A stretch of DNA of 40,961 nt from Atractiella rhizophila (taxonomy: Eukaryota), in assembly GCA_021432655.1 (NCBI GenBank), contig MU271213.1:62001-102961 (forward strand), read 5' to 3'. Below the pieces are notes generated by a model, which saw nothing but the letters and a program-made list of their open reading frames with translations, ran no database searches and was not told the DNA's origin. Numbering within the stretch: position 1 is the stretch's first letter; the number at the start of each line of letters is the position of its first letter. Positions 15,386 through 37,144 of the stretch are shown here, piece by piece. The position numbers and the translations under genes were made by a program.

Positions 15386-18114
<2,729 letters not shown>

Positions 18115-21048: not shown

Positions 21049-23670
21049 ATGTCGGCTCTGCCTCCTCTTCCTGGTACCCCTACGAATACAGCTCCGGTGC
21101 TTGCAGACGAAGAAGCGGATGCAGCACCAGAAACACCATCGATGCCACTTCCGGCGCGTCCATCGATTCCCGCGACGCCAACCAAAGAAGGAGGTTTTAG
21201 AAACGATATCATGACGCCAGATGTAAAGCAGGACGTAAAGAAAGAACGTATGGGAAACGAAGGAGACGGATTGAAGGGCGAAGAGGAAATGCGAGAGAAG
21301 GAGAAGCAGAAAGAGGTTCTGAAGGAGTTCGATCCTTTTGGTGCAGCTGCAGCTGATAACGTTGAAGGTGAGGCGGAGAAGGAAGTTGGGAAAGGGGACG
21401 AGAAGGAAGATCTCATGGTTACATCGTCGAAACCATCACTGGAGGATCGCCCGCCAAATTCCCCACCACCACCTCCCCCTCCAAAGCTCGTTACCGCTCC
21501 TTCTGCTTCAAACACGCCTTCTCAGTCCTCTCCATTGACCATAAATCCTTTTGCCACCCTTTCGAGCGTCTTCAGGAAGCTCCCGCCCTTCTCTCCAACA
21601 CATTCACGGAACAACTCAGTCCCTAGCACTCCTCCTCCCGCTCCACAGAAGGATAATCCTCTGGATAAGGAAGTGGGGAAGGAAGACGAGCCCAAGTTTG
21701 ATTATCAGAAATTCTTGGAGAAGATGAGGGATAGAAGAGCTGATGGAGTCGGAAAATATCTGCGCAGGTTCGTCCCTTTCTGAGGTCCTGAGCAGCTAAC
21801 TAATGAGGTCGATCTGGGGTGGAAACAGTTTTCTGAAACACTTTCAAGCGAAGCCTCCGCGAACAATACCTGATCAGATCAAAGTCATTAACGACTTCCT
21901 GGACTTTATTGCACTCAAGATGCGGGAAAACGATCTATTCTATCCATCCCGGCTTCCACAAAAGGTCCGTCTGCCCCTATCTCGCTAGCTGGAAAAGAAA
22001 ACTGATGTGAGAGGAAGGAAGAGAGCGGAAGCTGAGTTCGAGATCAATCTGGAAGCGATGGAGAAGTTAGTCCTTAATCGACTGTGGCATTTGTGAGTAT
22101 CTCGGTACTATTTAACCGTTACTACAACAGCAACTTTTATAGAACATTTACGCCGGTTTTAAACCAATCTGGGTCCACTCGTCCCCCATCCGACGACCTG
22201 GAACGTGACCACGTCCTCTCTCAGCGCATTTTCCTCTTCCGATGGATTGAACCCAAACACCTCGATCTCCCGTTCCCTCGTCCCAAGACAAAGAAGGAAG
22301 GAGCGGAGGGAGAGGAAGGTGTTGATGCGGAGGCGGAGAGAGAAGAGGAAGACGAGCGCGAGGACGGCGGTTGGGACCATTACATTCCCTTTGCCCAGCG
22401 GGAGTTGGGGAACATCAATCACTACAAAGCTCCAAGAGATAAAATCATCTGCGTCCTCAATTGCTGTAAAGTCATCTTCGGTCTGTCCCTCCTCTCGGCT
22501 TTGTCGACTGTTTCTCTGATAGCAGATGTGAGCAGGACTCATCAAGCAGGCAATGGGCAATTCGGAAACTGGGGCAGACGCTTTCATTCCCATTCTCATC
22601 TACATCGTCCTCAAGAGTAACCCCGAACACCTTGTCAGCAATTTGCAATTCGTGATGCGGTTCAGGAACCCGGAGAAATTGGCAGGAGAGACTGGTTACT
22701 ACCTCTCCTCTCTCGTGCGTCCTGTCCTGGTCTATTCCGCTTAAGCATGAGTGTTCAGTGTGGTTGGTACAGAATGCCGCTATTAGCTTCATTGAGACAT
22801 TAGATTGGAGCAATCTCTCTAATATCTCACAGGAGGAATTTGAGCGGTAAGTATTTCTAAAGCTAGAGCAATGTTTTTCATAGAACTCGTTGATTTGTAG
22901 GAATGTGGAATCCGCCATTTCAGATCTACCCACAGAGTTCAAGTCCGACTTTGCTTTAGCCACTCCAAATCTAGCAAACACAATGCTTCCATCGTTTCCT
23001 CCTTCCGCTCCCGCTCCACCTTCTATATCAGAACAACCAACTCGCTGTCCCGCCGCCGTCTACTCCTCAGCGCCCGCATCCAGATACACAGACTACGGCG
23101 TCAACTTCGACCTCTCCTCTCCCTATTCCCATCATGGGAACACTCCGGAAAATGGCCTCGCAGACGGACCTCCTCTCCACTTCTCCCTCAAACACCGCCG
23201 AGCTAACATCTCCTCAACCTCTCTTCCCCAATTCAGCACAAGTCGAAGCTCAAGCACGAGCCTTCTTCCAACGTTCCACCGATCTCGCTCAGCACGCCCA
23301 AAGGACCGTGTCGAAACCTCTCATGGCGGTGGGGAAGATTTTTGAAGATCTGACGAGACGTGGAAGTACAGATAGCGAAAGGACAGGCGAGGAGGAGGAG
23401 AGAGACGGCCCGATGAGTCCGCTGCAGAATCCCCAGAGGGTTAGGAGAGGATATACGTTGCCGGAAGAGGGGATGTATTTGCCGGATGGTATGGACGACG
23501 ATGAGGCTGAGGAGACGGTGCGAAATGCGCATAATCGACGGCACGATGCTGCCTTGGGAACTTTGCAGGCTATGTTCCCCGATGCGGATAAAGAAGTTGT
23601 CGAGATGGTGCTCTTGAGTAATAGTGGGGATTTGGGAAAGACTATTGACCATTTGTTGGAGATGACGTGA
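21049..23670 (+). CDS. VPS9: Vps9 Rab5/Vps21 guanine-nucleotide exchange factor with C-terminal CUE domain
   Basis: FDYQKFLEKMR, AMEKLVLNRLW, DDLERDHVLSQRI, INHYKAPRDKIICVLNCCKVIFG, GADAFIPILIYIVLKSNP, GETGYYLSSL, and the CUE motif LQAMFPDADKEVVEMVL...TIDHLLEM. Confidence 0.96.
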
Positions 23671-23677
23671 AGTTAGC

Positions 23678-26653
23678 TTAACCAGCCTCTGGTTCTACCT
23701 CAGGTTGAGAGAGGAGAGAGGAAATCTGTTCATGTACATTCAGCTTCATAGATACAGATAGTAGAGGGATTTGAAGCACCTTTTTCAATAAATCCGAAGC
23801 GTGAGAAGCTTCCTTCGACGGTATCTTGCCTGCTTCCAGATCGTCTCGTAGTTGAGTTGCAGTGGTCGTCAGCCTTTCCATCACTTGCTCTCTTCTGCCA
23901 TTGCCATCACTTGAGTCGTACCCATCCAACGATGCCCCTAAAGCTGATACAGCCTGAATACGCGCTTTGTAGATCCTATCATCCCGTACAATCTCGATGA
24001 GTTGATCTCTAATTCCTTGGCTGACTTCGACCGGAATCGCGACTCGCTTGGCTGAGAAGATCTTGTACAGCGCATGCGCCGTGTTCCACCGTAGCTTTGC
24101 GACTTCGGACTTCAGAGCGGTCTGCAACACTTCGATGGAGTTGATGATGTCGTTGGAGGGAAGGAAGGAGTCTCCGAGCGCAAAGATGCAGCCGAGCGAA
24201 CGTACGATGTTGCCTTGTACCTTGTTGAAAGCAGTATGCTATCAAGGAATGTAAGGAAGGGGATTTGGAAGCACTCACGTTTGCCGAAGAAGTCTTGTGA
24301 AAAACAGAAATTAGAGATTCGATGAGAGCGTGCGTCAGGCTGTCGGAGAACATGACTGGCGGATCACTGTCTGCGATGTTCGCTAATGCCCAAGTGAGAG
24401 GGTAACGGGTTTGTTCTGGAGCGAAAGGATCGTTGAGGAGCATGAGGAGGAAGTCTACGAGTTCTTGTTGATCCTATCATCCTTTGTTAATTCTCACCGC
24501 ACTGAGAGGCACGTGGGAGGAATGACGGACGATTATGGAATGCATCTTGTCGAACAAGAATCCGATGCTTCGAATGGCTGATATCTTGACATCCACATCC
24601 TCGTCCAGGGTTAAGACTTTGAGTTTCTGAAACGTTTGTTCGGTCGATTTGTTCCACGCCAGCAAGAAAGAGCATGAGGCAGACTTAACGGCTGGTTCAT
24701 TTGACGAATCGAGGAGATGCTGTATCGTCCGAAGGTCCTCTTCAAATGCCTTTTCCATGTGATCACCAGCGGCTGAAGGAGGTAGGATAGCTGCTAAACA
24801 TTTGAGTTGCAAAAGCTTCGTTTCCGTCTTTGACTGTGCCAAACTATGTTTAACGATTTGGATGACCGACTTCAAATCAGACGCGGTGACGCTGAGGAGT
24901 AACAGGCTCCATAGAATTTCTGCATTTTCTCCATCCGCCTTTTCGCTCTGCAGCCTCGACAATACCTTCTTCGTGATCCCATCTTTTCCCAGGTCTCCTA
25001 CAAGAACAGTACTTTCGCATTCGTACTTTCGACAAACCTCTAGGATCCTCATTGTCACCGCCACCGCTGCTGCACAGACTTCCCTCGCATCCAATGGTTC
25101 CAAGAAGGTGAGAACATTTCGGAGGAGGTTCTGTAAGAGGGAAGGGTGGAGTTTGTCATATGGCGAATTATCGACGATTGTGCTGGCGAGGAAGAGGATA
25201 GAGGTGAGGAGGTTCGATGGATAGTTGGAGCAATATGGTTTCAGGAGGAGACCGTACATTCGAGAGTGTAGCTCGCGCACCATTCCTCCGAGTCGTTCAG
25301 AGAGGGATATGAAGGATGAACTTGGCCTTCCGGTTTGAGATCGTAGGTTGCCCCTCCCTCTCCCTCTCCCTCTCCCTTGCCCTTGGATTGAGAGGTTGGA
25401 GGTCGAAACTTGAAGTGATGGGTCTTCTGCGATCTTGAGATAGCTCTCAGAGCCTTCCAAGAGAAGTTTGGCCAATTTGACCGCGTTCAAGCGGACGAGA
25501 GAGGAAGAGTCAGAGCTGATGAGACTGAAGAGGTTGTTGTTCGAGGTAGAGAGAGAGTAGTAGGCGGAGTTGGGATAGAAGGGAAAGAAGAGGTTGAAGT
25601 ACGGATGGAAGGTCTTTGGAGATTTCGATGTCGAAATGACCGAATGGAGGAGATTCAGCGCCGCGTTTCGGATCTTGGATGCTATGACACGGCGGGATTC
25701 TTCTGGCGTTACATTTTGACGCTCTTCGCTCTCTGATTCCGAAGGAGTAGTCTCTCGCTTTCTCCAAGAAGTGGACATGGAGTTTCCAACCGCTGAAACA
25801 GTATAGGAAGCAGAAGGGCTCGCATCCCTCTTTGAAGGTGTAGAGGGAAAGGGTTTGCGAAAGGATGTTGCACTCGAAATAGAAGAGGTTGAGGTGCGTT
25901 TGCTTAAAGTAGAATCAGGATCTCGAAAGTAAGCCCACCAAGTGAGGTTATCGAACGCGTCTGTATGGAGTTGCTTGAGGATCGGTTGGTCGGATCCTTT
26001 CTCTTTTTCCGATGGTAGCTTGAGCACTAGCGTGTTGATGAGTCGTAGAGAAACTTCGACGAGTTGTAGTCGTGATAACTCATCTGCTCCATGGCTATGA
26101 GAAAGGGAGGGTACGGAACTCCTATACTTCTGCTCCTGAATGAGGATGTGGTTCGTCTCGTCGTAAACGTTTTGGAAAGGTGATGGTTGTTTGGACGGGT
26201 AGGCGTTGACGGACACGATTGTGAGAAGGCAGGAGGCAGCCAGATGGCGCGTTTTGTGGTTTGCAGCTGTGTCCCGCAAGACGGACAGAAGGAAGGGAAA
26301 GAAAGAAGAGTCTTCCTGCTCTCCATCTCAGTTTGATTTGGAATAAGAGAAAGCGAGAAGAGCGCACAGGGGTGCAACCATCCCTCAATTTGACCTTGAA
26401 CGCGCTCAATCCGAGCTCGAGTGGACCATCCTGCGTTCTTATGCCTTCACCGTCACTCTCACTTTCTGTGAGCGATGGCTCCTTGATGCAGTTCTTCTTC
26501 GGTTTCTTCTTCAGCGTCCACGCTTTCAGGTGAGTCTCCAACCGTTCGAGCTCCACTTCCATCACTCCATCGCGGGTCTAACCAGCGTGTTGGGTCAGTA
26601 CTACAACCACAACAAGAACAACAGCTGACCTCTGCAGACCCTGCTTCCGTCAT
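23678..26653 (-). CDS. HEAT/ARM-repeat protein, HEATR6 (DUF4042)-like
   Basis: ATG 26653 splices in frame to exons at ~26580-26370 and to ORF 24477-26279. Motifs KIRNAAL, FHPYFNLFFP, SDSSSLVRLNA...LLEGSESYL, SFISLSERLGGMVRELH, and C-terminal KLRWNTAHAL / YKARIQAVSAL resemble HEATR6. Confidence 0.75.
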
Positions 26654-27092: not shown

Positions 27093-30000
27093 ATGCCGGC
27101 TCCAGTCGACACCCCAGTCTTTTCCGATTCAGGTTCAGAATACTCCATCGCTACGGGTCCAGGTGGGCGAGGAGGACCTCAGCGTTCTAGCAGTGTTGCG
27201 AGCAACTCGAGCTATGGGGGTGGAAAAAGTTATGTCGAAGCTGATAAGTATTATGGGTCCTCACATCAAATGAGGATAAAGACGAGGACCTTTAGTTTCG
27301 TGAGCTTCCCTTTTTTTCCGGCGATAGAATATGTGGTATGTTATATGGGAAAGGGAGTCTGATGCTCCTGTTTGTTCATGTGGGATAGAGCAAGACTCAG
27401 TCTATCACTCCCGGTCCGGGAAATAGGCAACGACGCTTATCCCAAGGTGTGTGCACTTTTGCAGAAATGGGACCCCACACTGAAGTCACATCGGTGTAGA
27501 TGAGCGAGGGACCAAACCACGGAAATTCCTCATCGACCTCGAAGAGACGATGAAGATTGTCCTTGAGCAAGAAGACACAGACGGCAACTTCCAGGTGCGT
27601 TTCTCTCTCCAATCATTTCATCCTCAGACTGACTTCGGACGAACCAACGTTAGATATCCGTCGACGACAAAGGTCCTAAAATCTTCCCCCTCGGAACCGC
27701 TCACTCGAACGGTTTCAAGTCCTTCGACATCCGAGGGACGTACATGTTGTCCAACCTACTCCAAGAGCTCGCTCTCGCACAGTCGTACAACCGTCGTAGG
27801 ATCGTACTAGACGAATCCCGTCTGACTGAGAATCCAGTCAACCGTCTGAATCGAATGATCAAGAATGCTTTTTGGAGCGGATTGACACGACGAATCGACT
27901 CCCACGGTTTGAAACAGATCCTTTTGGACCCGAAGAACAGGAGTCCTGATCTCACTAGCTACATTTATGTCCCTTCTCATCCCGAGTGTAGCGATATGAG
28001 AGAATATTATCGCAATTTGGCGGTGAAGGATCCTTCGTTGAATCTCAAGGTCATCGAACTCCCTCCTCCGGATCAAATCGATGGAAAACTCACTTACTCC
28101 TTCAACTCCAAACCCGGAATTTTAGCGCTGGCCATGAGGAGGGAACATGAGAGGGAAGAGGAGACTTTGGAGAAGGAAGAGATTGAGGAATACATCAGGA
28201 TGCATGGAAAGAGACCGGATATCAGGGAACCGAAAGATAGAGGAGAGTTGACTGGCATTCCCTTCGTCGTACCAGGAGCAAGGTTCAATGAGCTGTACAA
28301 CGTAAGTTTTCGTCTTCGGTCTCTAAACTCTCCGAGGAGGAGGAGCTGACAACAAGCTTGTTGCAGTGGGACAGCTACTTCATCTCTCTTGGTCTGCTCG
28401 TAGACGACAAAGTAGAGCTCGCTCGAGGAATCTGCGAGCACTTTGCGTTCCAAGTGAAACACTACGGAAAGATCCTGAACGGCAACCGATCCTACTACCT
28501 CTGCCGCTCCCAACCTCCCTTCCTGACCGATTTCGCAGTCCAGATCTGGGCACGTCTACCCAAGACCCTTTCTACCAAGTCCTTCCTCCGTCGTGCGATC
28601 AAGGCTGCAATCAAGGAATACCACACCGTTTGGATGGCTCTTCCCCGCCTCGACCCCGTTTCAGGTCTGAGTAGGTTCAGACCTGGTGGACAGGGAATAC
28701 CTCCGGAAACTGAGGCGTCTCATTTCCTCCATATTCTCGAACCCTATGCTGAGAAACATGGATTGAGCGTTCATGAGTTTACGGAGGCTTATAATGAGGG
28801 AGTGATCAAGGAACCGGAGCTGGATGAGTACTTCTTGCATGACAGGTAAACCTCACCTCTTTCCCCAAATTAGAAACGTGAGACTCACGCGTGCCTACTT
28901 CAGAGCGGTAAGAGAGTCTGGTCATGATACCACATACCGTTTCGAAAAGGTCTGCGCCAACCTCGGAACTGTCGATCTCAATTCTCTGCTTTACAAATAC
29001 GAGATCGACATCGCGTCTGCGATCAAGTCTGTATTTGACGACCGTCTCGAATTGGACGATGAGTTCGACCTATCGCCCTACCCATTCGGGAGCGAAGTTC
29101 CAGACCACGTCGACCGACGAGAGAAGTCGACATTCGCCTCGTATGTTCCTAGCCAATCGCCTTGGTTCAGCAACAAGGAGGGAAGGGAACGGATGCCCAA
29201 GATTTCGTCGACTGCGAAGGTTCAGACGAGCGCGGAGTGGTTGGCGAGAGCGATGAGGAGGAGGAAACTTATGGATAGGTATATGTGGCATGAGGGAAAG
29301 GCAATGTATTTCGATTATGATACCGTCAAGAGGAAGATGGGACTTTACGAGTCCGTCACTTGCTTTTGGCCTATGTGGGCGGGATGCGCTAGCGAGCACC
29401 AGGCTCAACAACTCATGTTCGTTCTCTTCTTCATCAGCCTTTGGAAAATTGTAATGACCGACCGATGACCGTGGTGCAGGAGCAAAGCCCTGAAGAAGTT
29501 CGAGGTCACTGGCGGTCTCGTCAGCGGCACAAAAGAGTCGGTGGGCAAGATTGGACTCGACAAACCGAATCGTCAGTGGGAGTGCGTCCTCTTCTTTCCC
29601 TGCATCCGTTCTCTCATTGATGGTATTCGGAATAGTTATCCGTGCGCATGGGCTCCGCACCAAATCATGGGATGGATCGGAATGGAAAGGTACGGATATA
29701 ACGCCGACGCGGAAAGGCTTGCCTATCGATGGTGCTACATGCTCACCGCCGGCTTCGTCGATTTCAACGGCGTCGTTCCTGAGAAGGTAGGCCATTTTGT
29801 ATACAACGAGGAATCCTGACCGAATCTTATTTGTCGGATAGTTGGACGCGGTAGCTCTCTCTCATCACGTCACGGCGGAGTACGGCAACCAAGGCGTGGA
29901 CTTCAAGCGGATCAATCTCACAGGATTCGGATGGACGAACGCCTCGTACCAAATCGGACTCGAGTTCCTACAGGTCGCTCAAAAACGAGCGATCGGTAAC

Positions 30001-30754: not shown

Positions 30755-32167
30755 CTACGCAAACGATTTGTGTTTCCCACTCCACCTTTCCGACATCCCA
30801 TCAGCTCCTGCATTGAATCTGAATACAAACGAAGGAGAGAGCTCACAGGTCAGCAAAGAGTTTCCAAAGTACGGAGAACATGAGTCCCTGCAACCCATTT
30901 GCGAGCAACCTAGTCGGGAGACCTCTGAAGAGGACACCATTGAGTCCTTCCGCCGCATACACGTTCTTCAACGCTTGAGCTGTTACGTTACACAGGCATC
31001 AGCCTCTGTCACTGATTGGAAAAGGAGCAAGGTGGGGTAGAGGAGACGGACTGTAGGACACCTTCCGCTCGTCCACTTGCCGATAGGTCTTTAGTATCCT
31101 GAGCCAGTTAGAGACTGTGTCAGAGGCGATGGATGCGATGAAACCGATGAATGCTTGACGGAGGTAGATGAGCGCTAATTCATCCTCTGCAGGGAGAGGG
31201 AGGGTGCGTTTGAGAGAGTTATACGTCGCGAACCTGTCATCGTCATTGACAAATCGGCCGTTAGTAAGAAGATAAATAAACATTAAGAAGGAAGGATGGA
31301 GAGAAAAGATGAATCTCACCATGGATAGTGGCCCACGAAGGTAGCTGCCGCTGTTGCGAAAGCGCCATACCAAAGACTACCTATTCCGTTCTCCCTCACT
31401 CTTTGCTTTAAAATGGGAATTCCAGCCGGTCCTTGAGCTTGAAGGGTAGTCTTGAGGGTATCTATGGGCGTGAGGATCATGCGAAAGAGGGCAGCGGCAA
31501 GAGAAGCGAAGATGGTGATGAGGGGAGTGGTCCATTTAGGCGGGTCGAGCGAAGAAATGATACTCTCGATACCGGCATTGGCAAATGTGTCTCCGAATCG
31601 GGAGAGCGGTCCTTGGAAGATGGCTGCTGAGAGACCGGAGTAGAAACGTGGGATCTTGCCTGCTTGCCAGAGGAGAGAGACGGCGCCGGCGAAAGTGTGC
31701 CCAAAACGGTATTGGTAGTTCATCACCGCTACATCGATCCATAACAATCAGCATGTCTAGGATAAAATTAATTAAAGAAATGGAAGGAGGGACGAACTTC
31801 GTAAAGGCATCAAAGTTAGAACTTGCACCACCATCGCCGCGGCGCCGGACAATCCTCCTCCAAGAGCATCCTTCAAAGACTTTCGCCACTCGAATCCTCC
31901 CTTCTTCGAACCTCGGATCACAAATGCAGCCAACAGTCCCAATCCAGCGATACACACTCCCCAAAGGAGAGCGGTCTTCCATCCTGCGCTCTTTTCCTTC
32001 TCTGGGACTGTTCCCACTGGCTCGGCGGGAGGAGAGGCGAGTTTGGGAGGTGTGATAGACGAATATCCCGGAGGAGGAGTGGATGATTCTCCAGCCTCAG
32101 TGCTTAAAGCGGGAGGGAGCAGAGGCTGGCGCTCCAAATCGGCATCCTGGTTCAAGTTGGCCGACAT
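30755..32167 (-). CDS. Mitochondrial carrier (SLC25) family protein with N-terminal extension and extra TM helix
   Basis: Three carrier repeats: LMPLRAVMNYQYRFG...RFYSGL, LTPIDTLK...SLWYG, and SNWLRILKTYRQ...LFRGLPTRLLANGLQG. The protein ends LWSGKHKSFA-stop. Confidence 0.9.
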
Positions 32168-32474
32168 CGCTCGATGGACGAATCCCTATCAACTGAACAA
32201 ACTCGTCAAATGAAAATCTTCGCAAAATATTTTGGAAAGGCACTCACTCACGATGTCTGGGGCTTCAAAGGAGCAGGTGAATCTCACGCCTTTTTCTGAG
32301 GATTTGTCGACATTTTGAAATGCTGACTCTTGCGCGATCACGCGCTCCCACTGCTCAATCATGTGACCGGCGACTGTTTTCGTCTTTTCGTCCCTCGCGT
32401 CTTTCCCCTTCGACTACTTCAAATTGCTTCCGCTATCTTTATTCTAGCATATCATCTCAGCATCCTTTGTGACC

Positions 32475-34399
32475 ATGCAGACAGCACGGAAAGGCGTCCC
32501 GCCGCCCACGCGAAAGAGGACGTTCGCTCAGATATCCGCTCCTGCAGTTCAATCTCCTCAGAGGAAACGCGCCTTTGTGCCTAAGAACAATATGCCGAGT
32601 ATCGCGCCGCCAGAGTCATCGTCGGAAGAAGAGGAGGAAGAGGAGGAAGAGGGAGAGGGAGAGGGAGAAGATGGTGGGGAGGAAGATCGACTTGTGGGAG
32701 GAGAAGGAGAGGAAGCTGAGATGAACGAGGTGGTGGGTGCGTTGACTGAGGGGAGGAGGCCGCAGATTACTGCTAGGAAGAGCATTTCGAGGTTTGGGGT
32801 TAAAGGGAATGGGAATGGGAATGGGAAGGGAGGGAAGGGAGAGGAGAGGAGAGCTCGGAAGAGCATATTTCAGAATGTCGCTTCGATTGAACCCGCGACG
32901 ACGAAGCAATATTTTAAGGCGGACGCAAGGTCCAAGAAGGGTCCTGCGCGGGGTCCATCACCGCCAAAACGCCCTCGAGCCTCGAACAAGCAGTCCACCT
33001 CGAAAGGAGGTGCAAGGGCAGCCGATGAAGGCGTCGAAGACCTCGACTCTCCTCCGACATTTGAGCAGTTCCGAGCACTGAAGTCTCTGGGTACTGCAAT
33101 GCGGCTTGATCCTGAGGAGGAAGAGGAGGATGAATTACCGTTATTTTTGAGGAGGGGAAGTTGTGTTTGGGTCTATTACAGTGTGGAAGGGAGAAAGTAC
33201 GGAGGGAAAGAAGAGGTGGGTTTGGGACGAATCACGGATATGAGGATGCCTGCGCGACAGAAGACGGAGGGGGTCGTGGAGGCGGAGGCTGAGGAGACTT
33301 GGATCGAGGTCGAGTGGTTTTATAAGCCTTCGGACCTTGAATACTTCAAGTCAGTCCTCCACCCTTCTTTCCTTTGCGACAATTCGTTGTCATTATGTGC
33401 GCATTTACTTATCTAATTGGGATTGGGGAGCAGGAAATACGAATCCCTCTTGGACGGTCGACTGGCCTCTGAAGAGCTCGTACGGACGAACCATCGCGAA
33501 CTCGTATCCGTGTCCTCCATCGCTGGTTTCGCGGACGTGTGGGCGTTCGACGAGTCCACGAACACTGTCACGTACGAGGTTCCGAAGGTGGAAGAGAAGG
33601 GGATGAGAGGGGCATGGAAGATGAGCTCGATGGAGAAGCTGCAGAGCGGAATGAAGAGTCAGAATGGACGCTGGAGCGCCGGGATGGAGGAGAGGGCTTG
33701 GTTTTGGAGGTTTGAGCTGTCGAGGAGGGGGAGGGGGAATAGCGCTACCATTTCTCTTAAGGTCAGTCATCTCTCATGAATTTGTTACATCACTAGTCGT
33801 TTACTAATATATATGGAATCCGACAGCCTGGAACACACATCAAGCATTGTACTTGTCGAGGACCTTACATTACATGGAAACCAATGATACACTGCGAGAG
33901 CTGTAAACTCTGGATTCACTCCTCATGCGCCATCGAAAAAGCTCCACAAACCTCACAGGACGCGAGCGAAGAGAAAGACTCGCCCTTTGTCTGGGATTCT
34001 CAAGGACGGGGAGGGCAAGACGCACCCGCGGACCTGCTGCAGTATGCACAGCGATCAATCGTCAGAGGAGGGAGTTATGGGCTCACTGGAAACTATGAGC
34101 TCGTGATGAGGTGTCGACAATTGGTGCGGGAGGAGATGTGGGAGACGTATGGGGAGGACGCAGAGGAGTCAGAGGAATCAGAAGATGAGATGGGGGAGAA
34201 GGAGAAGCCGAAGTGGAAGAAGGAGATTGAGCGGTTTGAGGAGTGGAACGACTATTATCAGAGGGAGGGCAGGGGTGCGATTGTGCCTTTTGTGTGGGAG
34301 GGAAGAGGAGGGTGGGAGAAGAAAGAGAAGAAGATCGAAAGGGGAAGGGATGACGTTGTTGAAAAGATGTGGTGCCCAAAATGCCTCACCAGAATTTGA
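32475..34399 (+). CDS. BAH-PHD chromatin reader (EPR-1/BP1/EBS-SHL-like architecture, split PHD finger)
   Basis: BAH: LGRITDMR...WIEVEWFYKP...EELVRTNHRELVSVSSIAG...WFWRF. PHD: CTC-RGPY...IHCESCKLWIHSSC, an insertion containing RSIVRGG..GLTGN, and terminal WCPKC. Confidence 0.82.
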
Positions 34400-34870
34400 A
34401 CGGTGAACTGGGGACTATTTAATGGAGGGAACTGCAAATCGTGATGGAGCATCTTGGTATTTTGTCTTCTATGTTGGAAGCACTTTGTTATTTTATTTTG
34501 TTTGTTAGCAATTGGTTTGAGCAATACGGTAAATGGTAATACCCCGCGGCATCTTGCTGCCACCATATCAGACCGTATTCAACCTCCCTCCCTGAGATTA
34601 CGATCAATTATACGTAAAGAAAGCTGACGAAGGTAAGAAAGCGGTAATGGGAGAACAACAACAGGTCCGGCAAGGCTTCGCGCCGACAAGACACAGGGCT
34701 TTCGAAGCCTGTGCCTTTCCCGGCTTCTTCCGTCCACAAAAATTTATTTTCCCCAAAAACCAAAAAGAACGACCGCTTCGCTTTCAACTTCGCTTTCACA
34801 CTCTTCTCACCCACTCCACTCATCACCGTGCGTGCTCGTCTGTAGCTAGGTGCTGCCTAACGTTATGTAG

Positions 34871-37144
34871 ATGTTCGCTGCTCGCCGCTCAACTTCTCTC
34901 CTCTCCGCCGCTGTGAGCTCCTTCGTCATTGTACACGTGTATGGGAACTGACACGGGTCGGATGGGTTAAGCGCGGTGTGAGCTCAAAAAGACTTGCGTC
35001 CAGCAAGAGCATCACTCAGACACTCGAGGAAATCATTCCGGAACGTCAGGAGTTTGTGAAGAAGCTGAAGTCCGAACATGGATCCAAGAGCTTGGGGGAA
35101 ATCAAGGTCGAGAACCTTTTAGGTGAGCTATTCGTTATCCTTTGGGAATTATAGGAACAGAAGTGCTGGGACGTAAAATACACTGGGTCTCCAACCTCGT
35201 CGCTCTGCCCTTGCTCCATCCTTTGCCGGCAGGGTTGACCGCTTACCTGAAGGTTAATGCTGTCATATTTCCTCAATGATCAACAAACCACTCGGCCACC
35301 TTTATAGAAAGCCGAAGTAGCCACAAACTGAAGGATTGCCTACATAACATGGCAGTGTAACCTGCACCACAGCAGTCGATGTGGCAGTCTAATTTGGATG
35401 ATTCCAAAGCGATTGTCACGGCCCCTTTGAACCTGCCAACAATGCTTAACTTCCAATTTGTAACATGCTGACGTGTTCTCGAACAAACAGGTGGTATGCG
35501 AGGCCTCAAAGTGATGCTGTGGGAGCCTTCCGTCCTTGACGCGAATGAAGGAATCCGGTTTTGGGGAAAGACCATCCCTGAATGCCAGGAGATCCTCCCT
35601 TCCGCTGGCAAGGCCATTCAAGGTCTTGAGGGAGAGGAAATGCTCCCTGAAGCCATGTTTTGGTATCTTTTGACCGGTCAGGTACCTACCGTTGAACAGG
35701 TGCGTTGATTCATGTCATACGTTAACCTGTGCGGTTAAAGCGATGTCGGTTAGACCGCAGAGTTTACCAAGGAGTTGGTGGAGAGGAGCAAACTGCCCAG
35801 TTACGTCGAGAAGGTCATCGACTCTTTTCGTAGGCTGTCTTCCTCCCCTGAAGTTCTCAGTGGTGACTGTGAGCACAGCCAAAACCCTCCACCCCATGAC
35901 CCAATTCGTCTCCGCACTCGCTACCCTCAAGTATGTCATGCTCTATTTTTGCCGAAGCAATTGCCTGATGACGCCTGTCAAGTCACGACTCTAAGTTCGT
36001 CGCTGCCTACAATGGTGGTGTCAAGAAGGGCGAGTACTGGAAACCCACTCTCGAGGACTCCCTCGACTGTGTCGCCAAATCCTTCACCATTGCTTCCCGT
36101 GAGATGACCCTCTCAATTTCATCTGACACACTCCTCTAACTGGCTAGTGTGTGAAAAGGCATCTACAGGAACAAGTACCTTGATGGAGCCGCTGGCATGC
36201 CAGGCATTGACGGATCCAAGGATCTTTCCTGGAACTTCTCCAACCAGATCGGATTTGGGGACAAGCAGGGATTCATTGAGGTGATCAGGCTCTACAACGC
36301 TCTTCACAGTTCGTCTTCCCTACCATTCCGTTTCTTGCATCGTTCTTGATCTGATGCATGAAATGAACAGCCGACCACGAGGGAGGAAACGTCTCGGCCC
36401 ACACTACCCATCTCGTGGGATCAGCCCTGTCCGACCCCTTCCTCTCTTACTCCGCCGCCCTCGCTGGTCTTGCTGGTCCCCTCCATGGGCTCGCGAACCA
36501 GGAAGCGCTCCGATTCATCCTTTCCATTAAGGATTCGATTGGAGCTGCCGATATCACTAATGACAGGGTCAAGGAGGAGTTGTGGAAAGTCCTCAAGAGT
36601 GGAAGGGTCGTTCCTGGGTGCGTGTCCATACGTTTGAATACTATTGATGCAGTTTTGACGGTCGACGGATAGATACGGCCATGCCGTCTTGAGGAAGCCT
36701 GATCCCAGGTTCATTGCCCTCAGAGACTTCTCCCTGAAGTACACTGAGATCAAAGAAGACCCCGTCTTCAAGCTCGTTAACAAGGTACGTCCCAATGGCA
36801 TACTTTCGTGAGTGTAAAGCTGACGACAAGTGCAGACCTTCGAAGTCGCCCCTGGCGTCTTGACCGAACACGGAAAGACCAAGAACCCCTTCCCTAACGT
36901 CGATGCCGTCTCTGGATCGCTCCTCTACCACTTCGGATTGAGGCAATTCGAATACTACACCGTCACCTTCGGTACCTCCCGTGCTATGGGTGCTCTCTCT
37001 CAACTCGTCTGGGATAGGGGTTCGTAGATCCTCTATTTTATGAGAAATGTTCTAATCATTTTTACCTCTCCAGCCCTTGGAATGCCCATTGAGAGGCCGA
37101 AGTCTCTGTCCATGGAGGCTATCGCCAAGATCGTTGGTGCCTAA
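34871..37144 (+). CDS. Mitochondrial citrate-synthase-family enzyme, probably 2-methylcitrate synthase
   Basis: Presequence [16 protein letters not shown], then [61 protein letters not shown] and [25 protein letters not shown] and NVDAVSG (no His) resemble McsA rather than CitA. Confidence 0.88.

What the first reader, a model, noticed from the sequence alone, without database searches (positions are those of the whole stretch)
32475..32864. BAH-PHD reader carries multiple histone-H3-tail mimic motifs (QTARKG, ITARKS, RARKS)
Seen: the protein begins M-QTARKG and has QITARKS (32763-32783) and RRARKS (32847-32864) in its disordered N-terminus. Known: H3 has KQTARKS (K9) and KAARKS (K27). BAH-PHD proteins such as Neurospora EPR-1, Fusarium BP1 and plant EBS/SHL bind H3K27me through the BAH aromatic cage, and histone mimics regulate G9a and the PRC2 cofactor JARID2. 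Inference: the reader may itself be methylated or phosphorylated by H3K9/K27 enzymes, allowing auto-inhibition, self-polymerisation or methyltransferase feedback. I know of no description of this for fungal BAH-PHD proteins.
Basis: partly seen in the sequence, partly recalled or inferred. Interest (0 to 1): 0.72.

Follow-up and report, generated by a model that had tools for sequence, protein, structure and literature searches.

The report
ARKS motif cluster in fungal BAH-PHD reader
A chromatin-reader gene of the root fungus Atractiella rhizophila carries three copies of the short histone-H3 "ARKS"-type motif in its floppy front end, more than chance predicts, but whether they imitate the histone tail could not be tested because no relatives could be retrieved.

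Summary
A three-exon gene (32475-34399, +) encodes a 591-residue protein. It starts MQTARKG and carries QITARKS (32763-32783) and RRARKS (32847-32864) in a 215-residue disordered N-terminus. A spliced contig of run X2 confirms both introns. The public 305-residue model of Atractiella rhizophila is truncated.

Three ARK[S/G] motifs are far above chance. None of 200,000 composition shuffles reached three. Three of the five hits in the six-frame window lie here.

The protein looks like an EPR-1/BP1/EBS-SHL-type reader, with a weak BAH signal, a W-x-Y and H-x-E pattern, and a split PHD finger.

The histone-mimic reading stays untested.

Against self-binding in the H3K27me3 mode: no motif has both Ser(+1) and Pro(+3).

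The idea has a close precedent in the Swi6 ARK loop and in JARID2/PALI1. If true, it would be a new variant of a known kind. Interest is moderate.

The parts
32475..33349 (+). Exon 1 (residues 1-291 plus two bases of codon 292): disordered N-terminus and first half of the BAH-like domain
   Evidence: The donor GT at 33350 is confirmed by the X2 contig that skips 33350-33433.
33350..33433 (+). Intron 1, 84 nt, GT..AG
   Evidence: table 5 (skips 84, GT..AG, one contig, side 128). Splice sites were read.
33434..33761 (+). Exon 2 (residues 292-401): second half of the BAH-like domain and a linker
33762..33826 (+). Intron 2, 65 nt, GT..AG
   Evidence: table 5 (skips 65, GT..AG with the cut 2 places further right). 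Also.
33827..34399 (+). Exon 3 (residues 402-591 and the stop): PHD core, 148-residue insert, terminal CxxC
32478..32495 (+). Motif 1, QTARKG (residues 2-7), followed by VPPP. It has Ala(-2), Lys and Pro(+3) but Gly at +1.
32763..32783 (+). Motif 2, QITARKS (residues 97-103), followed by I-S-R. It contains R-K-S-I.
32847..32864 (+). Motif 3, RRARKS (residues 125-130), followed by I-F-Q. It contains R-K-S-I.
32613..32747 (+). Acidic Glu/Gly-rich block (residues 47-91) between motif 1 and motifs 2/3
   Evidence: Flagged as a repeat when reads were laid.
32961..32978 (+). PPKRPR, the strongest classical nuclear-localisation-like basic cluster (residues 163-168). Further basic clusters TRKR and QRKR lie at residues 12-15 and 29-32.
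   Evidence: pattern; by eye. Reading them as an NLS is inference.
33138..33593 (+). BAH-like domain, about residues 222-345, interrupted by intron 1
   Evidence: Pfam PF01426 at E 0.0065 and 16.8 bits, below the 30.8 cut-off, on the read-through with X. Atlas neighbours of residues 205-291 are BAH clusters with top score 0.90. The boundaries are my estimate.
33315..33323 (+). W281-F-Y283, candidate back and side of the methyl-lysine cage
   Evidence: Same W-x-Y spacing as PtSHL Trp63/Tyr65. The assignment is inference, not an alignment.
33492..33500 (+). H312-R-E314, candidate counterpart of the His-x-Asp pair that reads H3 Ser28/Pro30
   Evidence: PtSHL has His88/Asp90, 23 residues after Tyr65, against 29 here. 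Inference.
33848..33928 (+). PHD core C-x-C-x12-C-x2-C-x4-H-x2-C (residues 409-435)
   Evidence: phmmer against PDB: PHF2 2.9e-5, PHF23 1.5e-4, EBS 0.0075, SHL 0.035. Pfam PHD E 0.0015, 18.9 bits, below the cut-off of 24.
33929..34372 (+). 148-residue Glu/Gly/Lys/Arg-rich insert that splits the PHD finger
   Evidence: EPR-1 is drawn with a 'PHD finger (split)' (figure legends).
34373..34384 (+). Terminal C-P-K-C (residues 584-587), probable last zinc-ligand pair of the split PHD
   Evidence: The pairing with the core is inference.

Best explanation
The finding sits in exon 1 of a three-exon gene of Atractiella rhizophila. The gene encodes a 591-residue nuclear chromatin reader of the EPR-1/BP1/EBS-SHL kind. 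It has a 215-residue disordered, basic-and-acidic N-terminus, a divergent BAH domain, and a PHD finger whose last Cys pair is displaced by a 148-residue insert.

The N-terminus carries a non-random cluster of three ARK[S/G] motifs. I think they are most likely working short linear motifs that copy the A-R-K-S core shared by H3K9 and H3K27.

The most probable form is a multivalent 'ARK ligand'. It would act like the ARK loop of fission-yeast Swi6, which occupies a methyl-lysine pocket in cis or in trans and so tunes auto-inhibition, oligomerisation or condensation. It could also act like JARID2/PALI1, where a lysine methylated by the associated PRC2 then engages a PRC2 reader subunit. The two R-K-S-I serines would give a phospho-switch.

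Shown: the gene model, the motifs, their enrichment, and purifying selection on the disordered region.

Inferred: the family assignment (moderately supported) and every step of modification or binding.

Binding to its own BAH in the canonical H3K27me3 mode is the least well fitted variant.
For: - Gene model. A contig of run X2 joins 33222-33349, 33434-33759 and 33825-34545 across both GT..AG introns.
- Family. The W-x-Y and H-x-E spacing resembles PtSHL. The split PHD matches EPR-1.
- Enrichment. None of 200,000 shuffles reached 3 ARK[SG]. Block- and window-preserving shuffles gave P(>=3) 5e-6 and P(>=2) 7e-4. Three of the 5 six-frame hits in 81,918 residues lie in this stretch.
- Motifs 2 and 3 are alike only over the motif itself, ARKSI, 14 nt. 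That is what motif-level constraint would give.
- All three motifs keep Ala at -2. SHL reads that position through a small hydrophobic pocket.
- Constraint on the disordered region. Between the window and the X2 contigs, 6 codons differ in the covered part of residues 1-215. Five are silent and one is replaced (Q26P). With 75.5% non-synonymous sites the binomial P is 0.004.
- Context. BP1 binds the PRC2 subunit Suz12, so a family member sits next to the H3K27 methyltransferase.
- Precedents. The Swi6 ARK loop mimics H3 and drives auto-inhibition and oligomerisation (passages). JARID2 and PALI1 mimic H3K27me3 towards PRC2 (listing and abstract starts). SETDB1 automethylates on H3K9-like motifs (abstract start).
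Against: - Conservation is unknown. Exon 1 against 1.84 billion representatives found only itself. Three word-index searches found only the same protein. Two metagenome scans found none.
- Whether the genome has PRC2, Clr4/DIM-5 or HP1 is unknown. No paper in the library holds both Pucciniomycotina and H3K27.
- The likeness to H3 is 4-5 residues only. There were no PDB hits, histone or otherwise, at E<=10.
- BAH readers of H3K27me3 need Ser28 and Pro30, and mutating the His or Asp that read them abolishes binding. No motif here has both.
- In Fusarium BP1, deleting IDR1 left growth and nuclear puncta normal, whereas IDR2 near the C-terminus mattered. I did not see where IDR1 lies; that it is N-terminal is my assumption.
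- The BAH assignment rests on sub-threshold evidence. Pfam gave 16.8 bits against a cut-off of 30.8, and no BAH chain was hit in the PDB.
- The statistics are post hoc, on a motif picked by eye.
Confidence: 0.37

Rival explanations
1. The cluster has no function of its own. It is a by-product of an Ala/Arg/Lys/Ser-rich disordered region, with motifs 2 and 3 perhaps arising from a micro-duplication. The region as a whole serves nuclear import, non-specific DNA or nucleosome contact, or condensate formation.
For: - Conservation could not be shown.
- The motif was picked post hoc.
- Better NLS-like clusters lie in the same region: PPKRPR, TRKR and QRKR.
- Both IDRs of BP1 phase-separate in vitro, and IDR1 is dispensable in vivo.
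- 327 of 407 BP1 orthologues have an IDR1, so such regions are generic in the family.
- There is no extended H3 likeness.
- Motifs 2 and 3 share GCT.GGAAGAGCAT.
Against: - Composition alone gives 0.03-0.04 motifs, not 3.
- If motifs 2 and 3 are counted as one event, P(>=2) is still 7e-4.
- Similarity between motifs 2 and 3 does not extend beyond the motif. 149 of 2000 protein shuffles and 10 of 500 DNA shuffles reached the observed score.
- The disordered region is under purifying selection.
Confidence: 0.35
2. The two ARKS-I sites are simply basophilic-kinase phosphosites. R-K-S-I fits the Aurora/Ipl1-type [RK]-x-[ST]-[ILV] consensus, which I recall and did not look up. They would regulate chromatin residence or condensation of the reader through the cell cycle, with no lysine methylation or reader docking. 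Motif 1, which has no Ser, would be unrelated.
For: Both internal motifs share Ser followed by Ile, as ARKSI. Phosphorylation controls auto-inhibition and oligomerisation in HP1 proteins (title and abstract start of the Swi6 phosphorylation preprint).
Against: This does not explain the conserved Ala(-2) and Thr/Arg(-3) or the third motif ARKG. No kinase data of any kind are available here. It also overlaps the best explanation, because the same kinase class acts on H3 S10 and S28.
Confidence: 0.15
3. The ARK motifs are arginine/lysine anchors for nucleosomal DNA or the acidic patch. They would add non-specific nucleosome affinity to a weak BAH-H3K27me3 contact.
For: [quoted passage not shown] The EPR-1 BAH binds H3K27me3 only with apparent high-micromolar affinity, so extra contacts are plausible. 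BP1 binds DNA, though through its PHD finger (abstract).
Against: Such anchors do not need the exact A-R-K-S order. The adjacent acidic block would compete.
Confidence: 0.08

Closest known systems
Neurospora crassa EPR-1 (NCU07505) and Fusarium graminearum BP1, fungal BAH-PHD readers of H3K27 methylation
   Same: The order is BAH then PHD. The PHD finger is split by a long insert (EPR-1 legend). Disordered regions flank the domains. The cage-type W-x-Y is present.
   Different: No sequence-level orthology could be shown. BAH and PHD both score below Pfam cut-offs. Nothing in the passages I read of these papers mentions ARKS-type motifs in their disordered regions, and I could not inspect their sequences.
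Plant EBS and SHL (PDB 5z8l, 5znp/5znr)
   Same: The PHD core aligns: EBS E 0.0075, SHL E 0.035. The BAH cage pattern W-x-Y followed by His-x-acid resembles Trp63/Tyr65 and His88/Asp90 of PtSHL.
   Different: The plant proteins are about 200-230 residues with an unsplit PHD and no long N-terminal disordered region. Here Asp is Glu, and the loop between the cage and His is 6 residues longer.
ARK loop of S. pombe Swi6 (HP1)
   Same: It is a fungal methyl-lysine reader that carries an A-R-K copy of the H3 tail.
   Different: The Swi6 mimic is a single loop inside the folded chromodomain of an H3K9me reader. Here there are three motifs in a disordered N-terminus of a BAH-PHD protein, and no binding has been shown.
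JARID2 K116 and PALI1, H3K27me3-mimicking PRC2 cofactors
   Same: They are non-histone PRC2 partners whose lysine is used as an H3K27me3 mimic towards PRC2 (listing and abstract starts). BP1 is also a PRC2 partner, through Suz12.
   Different: They are animal proteins unrelated in sequence, and they are not H3K27me3 readers themselves. Methylation of the present protein is untested.
Automethylated H3K9 writers with ARK(S/T)-like sites (SETDB1; G9a, recalled)
   Same: H3K9-like motifs in chromatin proteins become methylated and recruit chromodomain proteins (abstract start of the SETDB1 preprint; the G9a case is from memory).
   Different: Those motifs sit on the enzyme itself. Here they sit on a putative reader.

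Membership tests
EPR-1/BP1/EBS-SHL BAH-PHD readers | BAH domain N-terminal to the PHD finger | tested here: inconclusive
   The split exons give no Pfam hit. The read-through of intron 1 with X gives PF01426 as the only family, at E 0.0065 and 16.8 bits against a cut-off of 30.8. Atlas neighbours of residues 205-291 are BAH clusters (0.90, 0.89, 0.88), and all ten best named hits share the family. No BAH chain was hit in the PDB. The fold failed with pLDDT 32.6.
EPR-1/BP1/EBS-SHL BAH-PHD readers | PHD finger (Cys4-His-Cys3), split in EPR-1 | tested here: met
   The core C-x-C-x12-C-x2-C-x4-H-x2-C lies at residues 409-435, and a C-x2-C lies at 584-587 after a 148-residue insert. PDB hits: PHF2 2.9e-5, EBS 0.0075, SHL 0.035. 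Pfam PHD is below cut-off, 18.9 against 24 bits. 'PHD finger (split)' is in the EPR-1 legends. That the distal pair completes the finger is inferred.
EPR-1/BP1/EBS-SHL BAH-PHD readers | BAH aromatic cage (Tyr, Trp, Tyr) and His-x-Asp that read K27me3, Ser28 and Pro30 | tested here: inconclusive
   W281-x-Y283 and H312-x-E314 are present with SHL-like spacing. Y234, Y235 and Y242 are candidates for the first Tyr. No alignment or structure was available to confirm this.
EPR-1/BP1/EBS-SHL BAH-PHD readers | Detectable sequence orthology to family members | tested here: not met
   Exon 1 against 1.84 billion representatives found only itself. Exon 1 'longer' and 'near' and exon 3 'longer' in the 5.8-billion set found only the window's own model. 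These were exon-sized queries with strict thresholds, so this is weak evidence of absence.
EPR-1/BP1/EBS-SHL BAH-PHD readers | Co-occurrence with an H3K27 methyltransferase (SET-7/EZH2) in the genome | not testable with these tools
   No genome is held for this window. No paper holds both Pucciniomycotina and H3K27.
Histone H3 tail mimics | Copy of the residues around a modified H3 lysine | tested here: met
   There are ARKS twice and ARKG once. TARK occurs twice, and QTARK lies at the N-terminus. The H3 motifs themselves are as quoted ('ARKS') and otherwise recalled.
Histone H3 tail mimics | Likeness extending beyond the 4-5-residue core | tested here: not met
   phmmer of residues 1-46 and 92-140 against the PDB at E<=10 gave no hit. 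The +1 to +3 positions are G-V-P, S-I-S and S-I-F.
Histone H3 tail mimics | Conservation of the motif in relatives | not testable with these tools
   No relative was retrieved. The motifs are unchanged in the 95-99%-alike X2 contigs, which is uninformative at that distance.
Histone H3 tail mimics | Modification by, or binding to, histone writers or readers | not testable with these tools
Only bench work can settle this.

The most novel reading that the evidence does not exclude
In a PRC1-less fungus, the H3K27me reader is itself a PRC2 substrate. That would be a reader-borne equivalent of JARID2/PALI1 combined with a Swi6-like ARK contact.
Probability: 0.1. Interest if true: 0.8.

Novelty: new variant of a known kind. 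Interest (0 to 1): 0.4.

Why it matters
How fungi that lack PRC1 turn H3K27 methylation into stable repression is an open question. EPR-1 acts 'through an unknown molecular mechanism'.

Such a step is known for HP1/Swi6 and for animal PRC2 cofactors but not for BAH-PHD readers. It would be directly testable with peptides and point mutants.

Independently of that, the public gene model is truncated. It hides the BAH and PHD domains, so this protein would be missed in family surveys.

Tried and rejected
**Orthologue retrieval**
- Exon 1 'longer' found none.
- Exon 1 against the representatives found itself only.
- Exon 1 'near' found itself only.
- Exon 3 'longer' at E<=10 found none.
- Metagenome scans with exon 3 and exon 1 gave 95 and 622 pattern matches, none confirmed.

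**Genome and expression**
- The genome could not be searched for PRC2 or Clr4 because none is held.
- No RNA holder is listed for the stretch. The kind of run X2 is not on record, though its contig is spliced.

**Structure**
- Exon 3 alone gave mean pLDDT 41.1.
- The BAH region read through intron 1 with X gave pLDDT 32.6.
- Both models were too poor for a fold search, so none was run.
- Complex prediction (BAH halves plus residues 92-140) was not available.
- PDB searches with the BAH halves and the read-through gave only a chance hit, HfmIscB at E about 0.8.
- The Atlas search with exon 3 gave only generic PHD clusters scoring under 0.9.

**Literature**
- The BP1 supplement zip was unreadable.
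- The BP1 phase-separation supplements hold none of Atractiella, Puccinia, Cryptococcus, ARKS or Basidiomycota.
- The PNAS version of the EPR-1 paper is not held. Its supplements and those of the bioRxiv version may list basidiomycete orthologues that I could not see.

**Earlier notes of this scan**
- There was nothing on this genome or sequence.
- The 'BAH PHD' and 'histone mimic' notes concern unrelated algal, archaeal and giant-virus genes.

**Segmental duplication of motifs 2 and 3**
- Similarity is confined to 14 nt. 10 of 500 DNA shuffles and 149 of 2000 protein shuffles reached the observed score. The idea is not supported beyond the motif.

**S-A-P-A at residues 21-24**
- This is a second H3-like word, matching H3 28-31 from memory. 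I judged it chance, because many tail 4-mers could match, and did not pursue it.
Full report
**What is there**

The coordinates of the finding lie in the first exon of a gene on the + strand. Reading the sequence and the frames gives three exons: 32475-33349, 33434-33761 and 33827-34399. The introns are 84 and 65 nt, with GTCAGT donors and CAG acceptors. The spliced product has 591 residues.

A contig of public run X2 is 95-99% alike to the window. It joins 33222-33349, 33434-33759 and 33825-34545, skipping exactly these two GT..AG intervals. This confirms the model. The kind of run X2 is not on record.

The only database match of exon 1 is an NCBI entry of 305 residues, 'hypothetical protein BT69DRAFT_593462 [Atractiella rhizophila]'. 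Its tail, read, shows that the model used a donor 4 nt further on, shifted frame and stopped early. The public model therefore lacks half of the BAH and all of the PHD.

Atractiella rhizophila is a Pucciniomycotina basidiomycete.

**The observation**

Exon 1 translates to MQTARKG......PQITARKSIS... and ...ERRARKSIF.... These are residues 2-7, 97-103 and 125-130, at exactly the stated coordinates.

The start codon is the first in-frame ATG after a TAG at 32445-32447. An X2 contig runs collinearly from 32391 across it. Because Gln follows Met, the initiator Met should stay on (general rule of methionine aminopeptidase, from knowledge). The N-terminus therefore resembles H3 residues 5-9, not the free H3 end.

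**Is it more than chance?**

- In the 215-residue N-terminus, ARK[SG] occurs three times against a shuffled mean of 0.031. None of 200,000 shuffles reached three.
- Shuffles kept within the basic and acidic blocks, or within 20-residue windows, give P(>=3) = 5e-6 and P(>=2) = 7e-4.
- In all six frames of the 40,961-base window (81,918 residues) there are five ARK[SG]. Three are here and two are in frames of 21 and 31 residues.
- Motifs 2 and 3 share ARKSI. Their DNA likeness is limited to 14 nt, and 10 of 500 shuffles reached that score. At protein level 149 of 2000 shuffles reached the score. A long duplication is not supported, and a micro-duplication cannot be excluded.
- The test is post hoc on a motif chosen by eye, so these P values overstate the case.
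- The likeness to H3 is short. Residues 1-46 and 92-140 hit nothing in the PDB at E<=10, no histone H3 chain either.

**What the protein is**

*PHD finger.* Exon 3 begins with a PHD-type core, C-x-C-x12-C-x2-C-x4-H-x2-C, at residues 409-435. It hits the following PHD fingers:

| PDB chain | E-value |
|---|---|
| PHF2 | 2.9e-5 |
| PHF23 | 1.5e-4 |
| PHF13, PHF8 | weaker, down the same list |
| EBS | 0.0075 |
| SHL | 0.035 |

Pfam PHD is just under its cut-off, at 18.9 against 24 bits. The next C-x2-C is at residues 584-587, after a 148-residue Glu/Gly/Lys/Arg-rich insert. Neurospora EPR-1 is drawn with a 'PHD finger (split)' (legends).

*BAH domain.* The BAH is divergent and cut by intron 1.
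- The separate exons hit nothing.
- Read through the in-frame intron with X at its one stop, PF01426 BAH is the only family listed. It scores E 0.0065 and 16.8 bits against a cut-off of 30.8.
- The language-model neighbours of residues 205-291 are BAH clusters, with scores of 0.90, 0.89 and 0.88.
- The sequence has W281-x-Y283 and, 29 residues on, H312-x-E314. Poplar SHL has the cage Tyr41/Trp63/Tyr65 and His88-x-Asp90, 23 residues after Tyr65.
- I take this as moderate support for an EPR-1/BP1/EBS-SHL-type reader. It is not proof.
- Both single-sequence folds were useless, with pLDDT 41.1 and 32.6.

*Neighbours.* The neighbouring genes are housekeeping genes: mitochondrial carrier, citrate synthase, trehalase, Sec23/24-family, CUE-domain and HEAT/DUF4042 proteins.

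**What could not be tested**

No orthologue could be obtained.
- Exon 1 against 1.84 billion representatives found only itself.
- Three word-index searches found nothing else.
- Two metagenome scans found nothing.

No paper in the library holds both Pucciniomycotina and H3K27. EPR-1 homologues generally co-occur with SET-7, so PRC2 is likely but not shown. The complex predictor was unavailable.

The one comparison available is with the X2 contigs. In the covered part of the disordered region, 6 codons differ. Five are silent and one is replaced (Q26P). With 75.5% non-synonymous sites, P is 0.004. The region is thus constrained as a whole. The motifs are unchanged, which says little at this distance.

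**How it most likely works**

The literature gives two templates.

1. *The Swi6 ARK loop.* A loop of the fission-yeast H3K9me reader copies the H3 tail and binds the methyl-lysine pocket of a partner chromodomain. This gives auto-inhibition and, between dimers, oligomerisation. The loop also touches nucleosomal DNA (passages).
2. *JARID2 and PALI1.* These PRC2 cofactors mimic H3K27me3 towards PRC2 (listing and abstract starts).

Fusarium BP1 binds the PRC2 subunit Suz12 and forms condensates through its disordered regions. A reader of this family therefore sits beside the methyltransferase and self-associates.

My best reading, at about 0.37, is that the three motifs are working ARK ligands or modification sites of this kind, and that the two R-K-S-I serines act as a phospho-switch.

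The specific idea that they dock in the protein's own BAH as H3K27me3 does is the weakest variant. Ser28 and Pro30 are both needed in that mode, and H3K9, with Gly at +3, is not recognised. Here the motifs read K-G-V-P, K-S-I-S and K-S-I-F. All three keep Ala at -2, which SHL also reads.

**Rivals**

- A functionless by-product of composition, or a micro-duplication, in a region that serves import, DNA contact or condensation (0.35). In BP1, IDR1 is dispensable in vivo.
- Plain basophilic-kinase sites (0.15).
- Nucleosome or DNA anchors (0.08).

**Novelty**

I found no description of ARKS-type motifs in fungal BAH-PHD readers. 'BAH domain' with 'histone mimic' returned 10 papers, and none of the 8 listed is on this subject. 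'Histone mimic' with 'ARKS' returned 32 papers. The 20 listed concern viral mimics and animal proteins, none a fungal BAH-PHD reader. The passages I read of the EPR-1, BP1 and review papers do not mention it.

The principle itself is known from Swi6, JARID2/PALI1 and automethylated H3K9 writers. If real, this would be a new variant of a known kind, seen so far in one species only. I score the interest as moderate (0.4). The most useful firm result is the corrected gene model.

Noticed in passing
window 33349-33440: The public NCBI model (BT69DRAFT_593462, 305 residues) uses a donor 4 nt downstream of the GT at 33350. It shifts frame and stops after 14 more residues. The spliced X2 contig supports the 591-residue model, which adds the second BAH half and the PHD finger.
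   Followed up: yes
window 33929-34372: The PHD finger is split by a 148-residue Glu/Gly/Lys/Arg-rich insert, and the last C-x2-C lies four residues from the C-terminus. In BP1 and EPR-1 the functionally important disordered region (IDR2) lies near the C-terminus. It may correspond to this insert.
   Followed up: partly
window 32192-32248: An X2 contig skips 55 nt with ends CT..AC, that is, a GT..AG intron on the minus strand. It probably belongs to the upstream minus-strand mitochondrial-carrier gene (Mito_carr hit at 31316-31747).
   Followed up: no
window 32290-32391: The X2 contigs have loose ends at 32290 and 32391. The intergenic or 5'-UTR stretch between the two divergent genes differs between the window and the X2 organism, while the flanking coding parts are 95-99% alike.
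   Followed up: no
window 32535-32546 (residues 21-24): S-A-P-A lies in the N-terminal region, 14 residues after motif 1. It equals the four residues that follow H3K27 (recalled), but it is not in register with any ARK. I judged it chance.
   Followed up: partly
window 32613-32747 and 32802-32825: A Glu/Gly microsatellite-like block and a GGGAAT-type repeat (encoding G-N-G-N-G-N-G) lie between the motifs. The first was flagged as a repeat when reads were laid, so its length may vary between strains.
   Followed up: no
window 16005-18114, 22975-23670, 24477-26327, 27654-29468, 34870-37100: The neighbours are ordinary housekeeping genes: a Sec23/24-family COPII subunit, a CUE-domain protein, a HEAT/DUF4042 protein, trehalase and citrate synthase.
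   Followed up: partly
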